From Escherichia phage T4: 64,000 bases of DNA. The DNA lies in sequence record NC_000866.4. The stretch is one strand, 5' to 3'. Position numbers and translations under genes: made by a program. How positions within the stretch are numbered: position 1 is the first letter of the stretch; each line of letters starts with the position of its first letter. Shown one piece after another: positions 7,774 to 11,525 of the stretch. The notes below the pieces were generated by a model, which did no database searches, was not told where the DNA came from, and saw only the letters and a program-made list of their open reading frames with translations.

Positions 7774-9537
7774 ATGGATATTAAAGTACATTTTCACGAC
7801 TTCAGTCATGTACGCATCGATTGTGAAGAGAGCACGTTCCACGAATTAAGAGATTTCTTTTCGTTTGAGGCCGATGGATATAGATTTAATCCTCGCTTCA
7901 GATATGGCAACTGGGATGGACGAATCCGTCTTTTAGATTATAATCGTCTTCTTCCATTCGGCTTAGTCGGGCAAATTAAAAAATTCTGTGATAATTTTGG
8001 CTATAAAGCCTGGATTGACCCACAAATTAACGAAAAAGAAGAATTATCAAGAAAAGATTTTGATGAATGGCTTTCTAAATTAGAAATCTATTCAGGAAAT
8101 AAAAGAATTGAACCGCACTGGTATCAAAAAGATGCAGTGTTCGAAGGATTAGTTAATCGTCGTAGAATTCTTAATCTTCCAACATCTGCAGGTAAATCTT
8201 TAATTCAAGCTTTGCTTGCGCGATATTATTTGGAAAATTATGAAGGTAAAATTCTTATCATTGTTCCAACAACTGCTCTGACAACTCAGATGGCTGATGA
8301 CTTCGTCGACTATCGTTTATTCAGCCATGCAATGATAAAGAAAATTGGTGGCGGAGCATCAAAAGATGATAAATATAAAAATGATGCACCAGTCGTTGTT
8401 GGTACATGGCAAACTGTAGTAAAACAACCGAAAGAATGGTTCTCACAGTTTGGAATGATGATGAATGATGAATGCCATCTTGCTACAGGAAAAAGTATTT
8501 CATCTATCATATCAGGTTTAAATAACTGCATGTTCAAATTCGGTTTGTCTGGTTCATTACGTGATGGCAAAGCCAATATCATGCAGTATGTTGGAATGTT
8601 TGGTGAAATATTTAAACCAGTAACGACTTCTAAATTAATGGAAGATGGACAAGTAACTGAGCTAAAAATTAATAGTATTTTTCTTCGCTATCCCGATGAG
8701 TTCACTACTAAATTAAAGGGAAAAACTTACCAAGAAGAAATAAAAATTATTACTGGGCTTAGTAAAAGAAATAAATGGATCGCTAAATTAGCTATTAAGC
8801 TTGCGCAAAAAGATGAAAACGCTTTTGTCATGTTTAAACATGTATCGCATGGTAAAGCTATTTTCGATTTAATTAAAAATGAATACGATAAAGTTTATTA
8901 CGTATCAGGGGAAGTTGATACCGAAACCCGCAATATAATGAAAACCTTAGCTGAAAATGGTAAAGGAATAATTATAGTAGCTAGTTATGGTGTATTTTCT
9001 ACTGGTATTTCAGTTAAAAATCTGCATCACGTTGTTTTAGCGCACGGTGTTAAATCAAAAATCATTGTATTACAAACAATCGGTCGTGTATTACGTAAGC
9101 ATGGTTCTAAGACAATAGCAACAGTCTGGGACCTCATAGATAGCGCAGGCGTCAAGCCAAAATCTGCTAATACGAAAAAGAAATATGTTCATTTGAACTA
9201 TCTTTTAAAACACGGCATTGATCGTATTCAGCGCTACGCAGATGAAAAATTTAATTACGTAATGAAAACAGTTAATTTAATAAGCTTCGGCCCTTTGGAG
9301 AAAAAGATGTTACTAGAATTTAAACAATTTCTTTATGAAGCTTCTATTGATGAATTTATGGGTAAAATTGCCTCTTGTCAAACATTAGAAGGTTTAGAAG
9401 AACTTGAAGCTTATTATAAGAAAAGAGTCAAAGAAACTGAATTAAAAGATACTGATGACATCTCTGTGAGAGATGCTTTGGCAGGAAAAAGAGCTGAATT
9501 AGAAGATTCAGACGATGAAGTAGAAGAAAGCTTTTAA
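7774..9537 (+). CDS. uvsW: UvsW DNA/RNA helicase (SF2)
   Basis: 587-aa ORF, ATG verified; Walker A LPTSAGKS and DECH box (MMMNDECH). Confidence 0.93.
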   Translation: MDIKVHFHDFSHVRIDCEESTFHELRDFFSFEADGYRFNPRFRYGNWDGRIRLLDYNRLLPFGLVGQIKKFCDNFGYKAWIDPQINEKEELSRKDFDEWLSKLEIYSGNKRIEPHWYQKDAVFEGLVNRRRILNLPTSAGKSLIQALLARYYLENYEGKILIIVPTTALTTQMADDFVDYRLFSHAMIKKIGGGASKDDKYKNDAPVVVGTWQTVVKQPKEWFSQFGMMMNDECHLATGKSISSIISGLNNCMFKFGLSGSLRDGKANIMQYVGMFGEIFKPVTTSKLMEDGQVTELKINSIFLRYPDEFTTKLKGKTYQEEIKIITGLSKRNKWIAKLAIKLAQKDENAFVMFKHVSHGKAIFDLIKNEYDKVYYVSGEVDTETRNIMKTLAENGKGIIIVASYGVFSTGISVKNLHHVVLAHGVKSKIIVLQTIGRVLRKHGSKTIATVWDLIDSAGVKPKSANTKKKYVHLNYLLKHGIDRIQRYADEKFNYVMKTVNLISFGPLEKKMLLEFKQFLYEASIDEFMGKIASCQTLEGLEELEAYYKKRVKETELKDTDDISVRDALAGKRAELEDSDDEVEESF

Positions 9538-9786: not shown

Positions 9787-10011
9787 TTATACAACTCTCA
9801 TATGCATATCAATGCCCATATCTTTAGAATAAAAATATTCATCAAGATATCCGGCAAATTTTCCTTTAATATAAAGGACATCTTCACCACACGGGTGGTC
9901 GGCCAGGATACGAATATCCTGACGCTTAAGATTATGCTTTTTCATTAAGAATTGAATTTCCGTTTCAAATTCTTCTTCATAATTAAAAGCATCATCAATG
10001 CTATATCTCAT
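9787..10011 (-). CDS. hypothetical protein (T4 uvsY.-1 position)
   Basis: 74-aa ORF directly downstream of uvsY. Confidence 0.6.
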   Translation of the reverse strand: MRYSIDDAFNYEEEFETEIQFLMKKHNLKRQDIRILADHPCGEDVLYIKGKFAGYLDEYFYSKDMGIDMHMRVV

Positions 10012-10424
10012 TATTTTCCAGCCTCAAATGCTCGCATGTCTTGAATATGCTTAATAGCAAATCCACGTGATTTAATAGCATCAAGAGCTCCGCTACAGAA
10101 ATCTAATAAAATCCCCCAATACTGCAACGAGGTATCAACCTTTAAAACATCCTTATCCGCTGATAGAACTGTCTTCATTTCTGATTTCTCGTAACGATCC
10201 ATACTAAATTCATCACCATCTCCTCGTCCCGAGTAGTAGTCTAATCTAGCTTTAAGAGCAACTTTTTTCTGTGCTTCAATTCTAAGCATTTCCTTTTTAA
10301 TACTTGAATGCTTATTAAGCCATTTACTATATAACATCACATTATTAGCTGCTTCATACTGTAATTTAGTCGAATCTATAAACACATCTTTCTTCAATTC
10401 TTCTTGAAGATCTTCTAATCTCAT
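10011..10424 (-). CDS. uvsY: UvsY recombination mediator
   Basis: 137-aa ORF recognised as T4 UvsY. Confidence 0.93.
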   Translation of the reverse strand: MRLEDLQEELKKDVFIDSTKLQYEAANNVMLYSKWLNKHSSIKKEMLRIEAQKKVALKARLDYYSGRGDGDEFSMDRYEKSEMKTVLSADKDVLKVDTSLQYWGILLDFCSGALDAIKSRGFAIKHIQDMRAFEAGK

Positions 10425-10473
10425 ATTGTTCTCTATTCAATTGTTATTGGTTGTTATTGGATGGACTTAGATT

Positions 10474-10500
10474 CATTATACCACGTTTTAACGTGAAGCA
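10474..10500 (-). promoter_or_regulatory. MotA-dependent middle promoter upstream of uvsY
   Basis: minus strand reads TGCTTCA (MotA box), 12 nt, TATAAT. Confidence 0.6.
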
Positions 10501-10899
10501 TTATACTCTATTACTGGAAGCCAGCTGCAGTTTTATCTGCTCAATATCATCAGGATTATCGATGACCGAAAAGCGTATTTCTACTATCAGAGTATAATCG
10601 TCATAAACGGGTATCACATTAACTGCTAATTTATCAATACGTGGCTCATAGTTTCTTACTGCGCTTTCGATATTGCGTTCAACCGTGTCAGCAGTAAGAG
10701 GAGTCATATTTTCAAAAAGCTGGTCTGATAAATCACATCCAAATTCAGGGTCAAACGGTCTTGAACCTTTTCTTGTTGTAATAATTCCCAAAAGACTGTT
10801 TTTAATTGACCTTAATCCAAGCGATCTGGAAACGTCTTTGTTCCAATCCATTTTCATTTCCGGGTCAATATCAGAATAAAGCTTATTAATATTTGCCAT
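10501..10899 (-). CDS. 25: Baseplate wedge protein gp25
   Basis: 132-aa ORF recognised as T4 gp25. Confidence 0.93.
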   Translation of the reverse strand: MANINKLYSDIDPEMKMDWNKDVSRSLGLRSIKNSLLGIITTRKGSRPFDPEFGCDLSDQLFENMTPLTADTVERNIESAVRNYEPRIDKLAVNVIPVYDDYTLIVEIRFSVIDNPDDIEQIKLQLASSNRV

Positions 10900-11525
10900 T
10901 ATAGTAACTCAAAGAACTCTTTGAGGCCTCTTATTACGTGAGCATGGGTTTTTCCACACTCTGGACACTTAATTGGAACAGCCAAATAAACGGTAGGCTT
11001 TAAAAGCATATCTTTTATAGCTACAATATCTGACTCTGTGATGATAGAATATAAATCTTCTAGTTCCTTTTCATTTAAGTCTTCAACTGGAATGCTTTCC
11101 CCGTTAGCATGAATCGTTTCTATACATGATACTATCATGTGGGCTATATTTTTATCATCAAAAATTTTAGGGTATCGGAATTTAATTTTAATGTCACCTA
11201 GTGTATACCAGAGGTCTTCTGGTGCATCTATTTGTGTATGTAATAGATTTATATGGGTTGGTATTTCAGTTCCACAGGTGCACTTCCAGGAGTTTTCGTG
11301 ATTAACTTCACCGAGAGAATGTGCCCATAAATGAATCAACAATAGTTCTGATTCTTGGCGGTTTAAATCTTTTGCATTTGTGCAGTCTTTGATTAGCTTT
11401 TTAACAATTACTTCTACGGAACCATTATTTTTGGCAGTAATAAGTTCTAGATATTCTTTAAGCGTGAATGCGCGACAATTGATTATTTTAGAACCAACTC
11501 TCACATCAAATTTGTATTCATACAT
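10899..11525 (-). CDS. 26: Baseplate hub protein gp26
   Basis: 208-aa ORF, ATG verified; position between 25 and 51. Confidence 0.85.

What the first reader, a model, noticed from the sequence alone, without database searches (positions are those of the whole stretch)
10441..10500. Perfect 10-nt tandem direct repeat next to the uvsY middle promoter
TTGTTATTGG occurs twice in tandem at 10441-10460, about 15 nt downstream of a MotA-box/-10 promoter on the minus strand, inside the uvsY 5-prime leader region.
Basis: seen in the sequence. Interest (0 to 1): 0.25.

Follow-up and report, generated by a model that had tools for sequence, protein, structure and literature searches.

The report
T4-only 10-bp duplication in uvsY leader/oriF
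The repeat is a real 10-bp tandem duplication found only in phage T4, sitting in the untranslated leader of the uvsY gene, which is also the easily melted part of replication origin oriF; it looks like a tolerated slippage product, not a functional signal.

Summary
TTGTTATTGG occurs twice at 10441-10460. On the coding (minus) strand this reads CCAATAACAA x2. The window is phage T4. The repeat lies 14 nt downstream of the -10 box of the MotA-dependent middle promoter PuvsY and occupies +9 to +28 of the 44-nt uvsY leader.

There the uvsY transcript forms an R-loop that primes DNA synthesis.

The two-copy state is not conserved:
- All 12 wild-type-like T4 records have two copies.
- Every other Tequatrovirus record inspected (T2, T6, RB14, RB32 and others) has exactly one. 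The identity bands of the roughly 484 non-T4 records fit one copy.
- Other genera have no repeat.
- Two clones from a Cas9 genome-reduction passage experiment have four and five copies.

The leader RNA is unstructured, and predicted ribosome-site accessibility does not change with copy number. Published work says the unwinding element has no specific sequence requirement.

Best reading: a lineage-specific slippage-type duplication that is neutral or nearly so, at a site prone to unit gain. A tuning role for origin firing or UvsY level is not excluded, but nothing here supports it. Interest is low.

The parts
10501..10899 (-). Gene 25 (baseplate wedge) coding sequence. Its stop codon TAA (10503-10501) overlaps the MotA box.
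   Evidence: ORF list; T4T annotation.
10494..10503 (-). MotA box of middle promoter PuvsY, TAATGCTTCA, a full match to the consensus (a/t)(a/t)(a/t)TGCTT(t/c)A.
   Evidence: Sequence; 'mot box' feature of M77695 maps to 10496-10502; consensus from PMC2988021.
10475..10480 (-). -10 element TATAAT of PuvsY, 13 bp downstream of the MotA box.
   Evidence: Sequence; 'TATA_box' feature of M77695. Invariant across Tevenvirinae genera.
10468..10468 (-). Transcription start of PuvsY, an A located 7 nt after the -10. This transcript is also the primer RNA of oriF.
   Evidence: Start site 115371 in Table 1 of PMC2988021. It was mapped to the window using a +12 offset checked at Phoc and P30 and the T4T-to-window mapping.
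10451..10460 (-). Repeat copy 1 (promoter-proximal), CCAATAACAA in mRNA sense, at +9 to +18. With the preceding T this is the unit (TCCAATAACA) amplified in the laboratory clones.
10441..10450 (-). Repeat copy 2, CCAATAACAA, at +19 to +28. Together with copy 1 it corresponds to the single copy in all other Tequatrovirus phages.
10425..10468 (-). uvsY 5' untranslated leader: 44 nt in T4 and 34 nt in one-copy relatives. It is A/C-rich and unstructured, with a GAG Shine-Dalgarno-like element at 10433-10431.
   Evidence: Folding gives MFE -3.6 kcal/mol with z = +0.34.
10400..10467 (.). Approximate DNA unwinding element (DUE) of oriF/ori(uvsY). The boundaries are inferred. The low-stability tract continues to about 10280.
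   Evidence: [quoted passage not shown] 100-bp windows between 10280 and 10460 fall in the least stable 3-5% of the 64-kb window; GC is 0.25-0.30. The rep_origin feature in T4T maps here.
10011..10424 (-). uvsY coding sequence (137 aa; recombination mediator protein).

Best explanation
The 20-bp tract is a tandem duplication of one 10-bp unit that is specific to the T4 lineage. It probably arose by replication slippage or unequal exchange in the 76-bp non-coding spacer between gene 25 and uvsY. The spacer has two jobs. It is the 5' leader of the uvsY mRNA made from the MotA-dependent middle promoter PuvsY. It is also the promoter-proximal part of the DNA unwinding element of replication origin oriF, where that same transcript stays hybridised as an R-loop and primes leading-strand synthesis. 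The extra unit has no sequence-specific role. It adds one helical turn (10 bp, 30% G+C) of unstructured A/C-rich leader and easily melted DNA. [quoted passage not shown] Once two copies exist the site is prone to further unit gain. Shown here: the position, the duplication, its restriction to T4, the copy-number changes in laboratory clones, and the lack of RNA structure. Inferred: the slippage mechanism and near-neutrality.
For: The window is T4, 100% identical to T4T.
- Distribution: 12 T4-type records, including the 1991 Sanger record M77695 and the isolates RB55 and RB59, carry two copies. Every non-T4 Tequatrovirus row listed spans 150 bp against the 160-bp query, including T2, T6, RB14, RB32, RB33, AR1 and ime09.
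- Alignment shows a clean one-unit indel with identical flanks.
- Other genera (Mosigvirus, Gelderlandvirus, Karamvirus, Jiaodavirus, Dhakavirus) keep the promoter but have no repeat, so one copy is ancestral.
- Exact scans found 5 IMG/VR and 5 metagenome contigs with the one-copy context and none with 2-5 copies.
- Copy number changes in the laboratory: clones T4_583L and T4_7t1 have four and five copies, while clone T4_3t3 from the same study has two. T4_583L has a near-normal burst size, 109 versus 120 (PMC9825161).
- The leader RNA is unstructured and there is no Rfam match.
- Predicted ribosome-binding-site opening energy is 4.25, 4.31, 3.74 and 3.94 kcal/mol for 1, 2, 4 and 5 copies.
- R-loop formation in the unwinding element does not depend on specific sequences, and heterologous unwinding elements can replace it (PMC3016281).
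- The unit's duplex stability is close to the genome average, -1.22 versus -1.26 kcal/mol per bp.
Against: - Neutrality has not been tested. The duplication is fixed in all T4-type records, and the expansion to 4-5 copies arose in a lineage under long selection, which could reflect benefit and not drift.
- The amplified laboratory unit is TCCAATAACA. Simple slippage between the two existing copies predicts ACCAATAACA, so the first laboratory event needs only a 2-nt (CA) microhomology, and the mechanism is not fully explained.
- The primary origin-mapping papers (Menkens and Kreuzer 1988; Carles-Kinch and Kreuzer 1997) were not available. I could not check the exact unwinding-element boundaries or whether the repeat was ever tested by deletion.
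Confidence: 0.75

Rival explanations
1. Copy number is a tuning device. Each added unit lengthens the A/C-rich unstructured leader and the unwinding element. This would raise or lower UvsY translation or mRNA stability, or change R-loop formation and firing of oriF. Under this reading the T4 duplication and the 4-5-copy laboratory expansion were selected.
For: - The two-copy state is fixed in all T4-type records.
- The expansion arose in a lineage passaged for hundreds of transfers under Cas9 cutting (PMC9825161), where repair depends on the UvsX/UvsY recombination pathway (established T4 biology, reviewed in PMC3016281).
- The RNA:DNA hybrid is marginally favoured over duplex across +9 to +40, by -0.4 to -1.4 kcal/mol per 30 nt.
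- From memory, not tested here: CAA-rich unstructured leaders can enhance translation in E. coli through ribosomal protein S1.
- Two unrelated viral contigs carry the same CCAATAACAA unit in tandem (at least two exact copies, with further near-copies) just upstream of ORF starts.
Against: - About 484 relatives function with one copy.
- Predicted ribosome-binding-site accessibility is essentially unchanged by copy number.
- The unwinding element has no specific sequence requirement.
- The two expanded clones are one lineage, not independent events, so there is no evidence of parallel selection.
- The source paper does not mention the change.
Confidence: 0.15
2. The two 10-mers are iteron-like protein-binding sites, one helical turn apart, for an origin-binding or regulatory protein.
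For: The repeats are perfect with a 10-bp period and lie inside a replication origin. T4 oriE has 12-nt direct repeats that have been discussed as iterons (PMC3016281).
Against: - There are only two copies, directly abutting.
- The array is absent from every relative, whereas the oriE iterons are conserved in syntenic regions.
- oriF works through an R-loop without sequence-specific unwinding-element requirements.
- Expansion to 4-5 copies is tolerated.
Confidence: 0.03
3. It is a chance similarity or a sequencing or assembly artefact.
For: Composition alone gives about a 9% chance of one such repeat per 64 kb.
Against: The same sequence appears in 12 T4-type database records (not all independently derived), including 1991 Sanger data. 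Relatives differ by exactly one unit with identical flanks, which is the signature of a duplication event.
Confidence: 0.02

Closest known systems
T4 replication origin oriF / ori(uvsY): middle promoter plus downstream DNA unwinding element, R-loop primed
   Same: The repeat lies within it. The MotA box, -10 and start site match the published PuvsY. The T4T record places the rep_origin here. The downstream 100-200 bp are among the least stable duplex in the window.
   Different: In the sources I could read (two reviews and the GenBank annotations) the repeat is not described as a component of the origin. The unwinding element is reported to have no specific sequence requirement, and relatives with the same promoter have a single unit.
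Slippage-type short tandem duplications and copy-number-variable repeats (VNTR-like loci)
   Same: The copies are exact and head to tail. Relatives differ by an indel of exactly one unit. Copy numbers of 1, 2, 4 and 5 are seen among close relatives and descendants. The location is non-coding, where a 10-nt insertion causes no frameshift.
   Different: There are only two copies in the wild type. The laboratory-amplified unit register (T-type junction) is not the one simple slippage between the two copies predicts.
Iterons of T4 oriE and of plasmid origins
   Same: Short direct repeats within a replication origin.
   Different: Iterons are multiple, spaced, conserved in syntenic regions of relatives and bound by an initiator. 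Here there are two abutting copies that are not conserved, and no initiator is known for oriF.

Membership tests
T4 middle (MotA/AsiA-dependent) promoter | MotA box (a/t)(a/t)(a/t)TGCTT(t/c)A centred near -30 | tested here: met
   TAATGCTTCA at 10503-10494. Annotated as 'mot box' in M77695. Consensus from PMC2988021.
T4 middle (MotA/AsiA-dependent) promoter | Sigma-70 type -10 element, 12 +/- 1 bp downstream of the MotA box | tested here: met
   TATAAT at 10480-10475 with a 13-bp spacer. The -10 is invariant across seven Tevenvirinae phages.
T4 middle (MotA/AsiA-dependent) promoter | Mapped transcription start and MotA dependence | not testable with these tools
   Literature only. PuvsY start 115371 (PMC2988021) maps to window 10468 after the offset check.
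R-loop origin oriF/ori(uvsY) | Middle promoter followed by an A+T-rich, easily unwound downstream element | tested here: met
   GC is 0.25-0.30 downstream. 100-bp duplex stability falls in the 95th-97th percentile of least stable windows. rep_origin annotation in T4T. Definition from PMC3016281.
R-loop origin oriF/ori(uvsY) | Persistent RNA-DNA hybrid and autonomous plasmid replication in infected cells | not testable with these tools
   Reported in the literature for T4. Not known for one-copy relatives.
Slippage-type tandem duplication / copy-number-variable repeat | Exact head-to-tail copies that differ from relatives by whole-unit indels | tested here: met
   150-bp versus 160-bp spans.
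Slippage-type tandem duplication / copy-number-variable repeat | Copy number changes among descendants | tested here: met
   2 copies in T4_3t3, 4 in T4_583L and 5 in T4_7t1. The two expanded clones share a lineage yet differ by one unit.
Iterons (initiator-binding origin repeats) | Repeat array conserved in the syntenic region of related phages | tested here: not met
   One copy in all non-T4 Tequatrovirus records inspected, and none in other genera.
Iterons (initiator-binding origin repeats) | Cognate binding protein | not testable with these tools
   None is known for oriF.
Structured RNA leader (attenuator, riboswitch, protein operator) | Stable or conserved secondary structure, or a match to a described RNA family | tested here: not met
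   MFE -3.6 kcal/mol with z = +0.34. No Rfam match at E <= 1.

The most novel reading that the evidence does not exclude
The 10-bp unit is a copy-number dial sitting on an element with two functions: the uvsY leader and the oriF unwinding element. Gains of units would adjust UvsY dosage and/or R-loop origin firing. The expansion from 2 to 4-5 copies would then have been selected in T4 lineages kept under chronic Cas9 double-strand breakage, where recombination-dependent repair is limiting.
Probability: 0.12. Interest if true: 0.5.

Novelty: new member of a known kind. Interest (0 to 1): 0.2.

Why it matters
This matters little in itself. It shows that the canonical T4 oriF/uvsY leader sequence used in decades of origin and R-loop work carries a T4-private 10-bp duplication that T2, T6 and hundreds of relatives lack. 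It also shows that the site gains further units during experimental evolution.

That gives a natural allelic series of 1, 2, 4 and 5 copies. The series could be used to ask whether the length of the unwinding element or leader affects R-loop origin firing or UvsY dosage. If there is no effect, it independently confirms that the unwinding element is length- and sequence-tolerant in vivo.

Tried and rejected
- RNA structure in the leader: none beyond shuffled controls.
- Rfam families on both strands of 10000-10900: none.
- Effect of copy number on ribosome-binding-site accessibility: negligible.
- Generic sigma-70 and terminator scan: it does not report PuvsY, because middle promoters have no -35, and shows nothing else at the repeat.
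- Other repeats in 10300-10600: only weak two-copy matches.
- Exact 20-mer in IMG/VR: two hits, both in unrelated contigs.
- Multi-copy T4-like context: none in IMG/VR or in metagenome contigs (the first metagenome attempt failed on queueing).
- T4 reference records NC_000866 and AF158101: not in the collection.
- Primary origin papers and related PMC ids: not held.
- Supplementary tables of the genome-reduction paper: not held. I could not see whether its authors recorded the insertion or whether a spacer targeted this spacer region.
- By eye I considered IHF and DnaA boxes, T4 primase GTT sites on the displaced strand, and a plus-strand promoter formed by the repeat. None gave a convincing match and none was pursued.

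Full report
**Observation.** The plus strand reads TTGTTATTGG TTGTTATTGG at 10441-10460, two perfect head-to-tail copies. The minus strand carries these features in order:
- the end of gene 25, with stop TAA at 10503-10501;
- TAATGCTTCA (10503-10494);
- a 13-bp spacer;
- TATAAT (10480-10475);
- 14 nt;
- CCAATAACAA CCAATAACAA (10460-10441);
- 16 nt that include GAG (10433-10431);
- the uvsY ATG (10424-10422).

By composition alone the repeat is unremarkable. First-order Markov simulations of the window give 0.10 perfect period-10 two-copy repeats per 64 kb, and 9% of simulations have at least one.

**Identity of the locus.** The window is phage T4, 100% identical to T4T over 890 bp.
- GenBank M77695 annotates a 'mot box' and a 'TATA_box' for uvsY at positions that map to 10496-10502 and 10475-10480.
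- The Hinton 2010 review gives the MotA box consensus, its 12 +/- 1 bp spacing from the -10, and lists PuvsY with a start at T4 coordinate 115371.
- I calibrated that coordinate system against the window using two other listed promoters on either side, Phoc and P30. Both show a +12 offset to T4T numbering.
- With that offset the PuvsY start falls at window 10468, an A exactly 7 nt after the -10.
- The repeat therefore occupies +9 to +28 of a 44-nt leader.

The T4T record places the rep_origin feature 'oriF (oriuvsY); primer RNA is same as transcript for gene uvsY' here. The Kreuzer and Brister review states the following:
- The promoter's transcript forms a persistent R-loop within that element and primes leading-strand synthesis.
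- R-loop formation does not depend on specific sequences, and heterologous unwinding elements can replace the native one.

My calculations agree with that picture. G+C is 0.25-0.30 from about 10260 to 10460, and 100-bp windows between 10280 and 10460 are in the least stable 3-5% of the 64-kb window. The repeat sits at the promoter-proximal edge of that tract. The unit itself has about average stability, -1.22 versus a mean of -1.26 kcal/mol per bp.

**Comparison with relatives.** A 160-bp query around the repeat matches 498 phage records.
- Twelve T4-type records match 160/160. They include T4, T4T, GT7-type strains, RB55, RB59, the 1991 Sanger record, and the laboratory clone T4_3t3.
- Every other Tequatrovirus row shown spans exactly 150 bp, both among the best hits and at even steps down the whole ranking. 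These include T2, T6, RB14, RB32, RB33, AR1 and ime09.
- No non-T4 record reaches 95% identity except one partial match, which is also 10 bp short.
- Alignment shows a clean one-unit indel with identical flanks in T6, RB32 and vB_Eco_F26.
- Representatives of Mosigvirus, Gelderlandvirus, Karamvirus, Jiaodavirus and Dhakavirus keep a MotA-like box, TATAATG and a conserved start-proximal block, but have no tandem repeat.
- Exact scans found the one-copy context in 5 IMG/VR and 5 metagenome contigs. They found no context with 2-5 copies.

One copy is therefore ancestral, and the duplication is private to the T4 lineage.

**Copy number changes in the laboratory.**
- 'Mutant T4 clone T4_7t1' (OL964745) reads CCAATAACAT x3 followed by CCAATAACAA x2, five copies in all.
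- 'Mutant T4 clone T4_583L' (MZ375356) has four copies.
- T4_583L is named in the CRISPR/Cas9 iterative genome-reduction study of Yuan et al. (PMC9825161), where it has a near-normal burst size of 109 versus 120.
- I could not find T4_7t1 in the text of that paper. I infer the same origin from its GenBank title, from annotation that cites T4583L locus tags, and from edits it shares with T4_583L.
- A third such clone, T4_3t3, keeps two copies.

Variant comparison over about 30 kb shows that the two expanded clones share many private small deletions that T4_3t3 lacks, and each also has edits of its own. They are therefore one lineage that later diverged, not independent events. The site changed at least twice: an initial expansion, then a gain or loss of one unit.

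The amplified unit is TCCAATAACA, which is copy 1 with its preceding T. Simple slippage between the two existing copies predicts the A-type junction instead. The first laboratory step therefore needs only a CA microhomology, and once two T-type units exist further gains are easy. This part is inference.

The nearest Cas9-type edit is a 2-bp deletion at 10002 in uvsY.-1, about 440 bp away.

One caveat applies. All three clones carry dinucleotide swaps relative to the window that look like differences from the old reference sequence, and the paper used breseq mapping. The exact copy numbers therefore deserve PCR confirmation.

**Tests for a specific function.**
- The leader RNA is unstructured: MFE -3.6 kcal/mol, z = +0.34 against shuffles.
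- No Rfam family matches on either strand.
- The predicted energy to open the ribosome-binding region is 4.25, 4.31, 3.74 and 3.94 kcal/mol for 1, 2, 4 and 5 copies. This is no meaningful change.
- The RNA:DNA hybrid is only marginally favoured over DNA duplex across +9 to +40.
- An iteron reading fails its conservation test. It is also at odds with the reported lack of a specific sequence requirement for the unwinding element.

**Conclusion.** The finding is real and correctly located. It is best explained as a T4-private slippage-type duplication in a spacer that tolerates it. That spacer is both the uvsY leader and the unwinding element of oriF. The site is mutationally unstable for unit number. 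A tuning role for UvsY dosage or origin firing cannot be excluded, and the 1/2/4/5-copy series makes it directly testable, but nothing computed here supports it. I did not find the copy-number variation described in the literature available to me, and the primary origin papers could not be read.

Noticed in passing
L002 470-520 (OL964745.1, T4_7t1); L008 545-585 (MZ375356.1, T4_583L): Two genome-reduced T4 clones carry 5 and 4 copies of the unit. T4_583L is from the CiPGr Cas9 passage study, and T4_7t1 is inferred to be. The extra units are the T-junction type (CCAATAACAT). The clones share a lineage but differ by one unit. The source paper's text does not mention this change.
   Followed up: yes
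window 10461-10480 and alignment A2 (L004, L007, L009-L012): The sequence just after the PuvsY -10 (TATAATG..(C/T)TA.GTCC(A/T)T(C/T)C.A) is largely conserved across most of the Tevenvirinae genera compared, whose UvsY proteins are only 60-83% identical. This suggests constraint on the initial transcribed region of the uvsY/oriF transcript.
   Followed up: partly
L014 944-974 and L013 7455-7500: Two unrelated IMG/VR contigs carry the same CCAATAACAA unit in tandem: three exact copies in L013, and two exact copies plus a near-copy in L014. In L014 the array directly abuts the ATG of an ORF with no Shine-Dalgarno sequence. In L013 it lies about 25-50 nt upstream of an ORF start. This is possibly a recurrent CAA-rich leader motif, or coincidence.
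   Followed up: partly
window 7774-9537: uvsW is a single 587-aa ORF in the window. The three CiPGr clone records split it into uvsW plus uvsW.1 because of small differences near 9280-9284. They also share dinucleotide swaps at 9142/3, 12264/5, 14205/6, 17618/9 and 18497/8. This looks like the old T4 reference backbone, so those records are probably reference-guided.
   Followed up: partly
window 10499-10506 and 10474-10481: GTATAATG occurs twice on the minus strand, 25 bp apart. One copy is the PuvsY -10. The other overlaps the gene 25 stop codon and the MotA box, so there is a second TATAAT at 10505-10500.
   Followed up: no
window 10500-10519 / 10579-10598: [quoted passage not shown]
   Followed up: no
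window, whole: There are five perfect two-copy tandem repeats with periods of 8-20 nt, against 1.96 expected in Markov simulations (4% of simulations reach five). This is a mild excess of short tandem duplications in this part of T4.
   Followed up: partly
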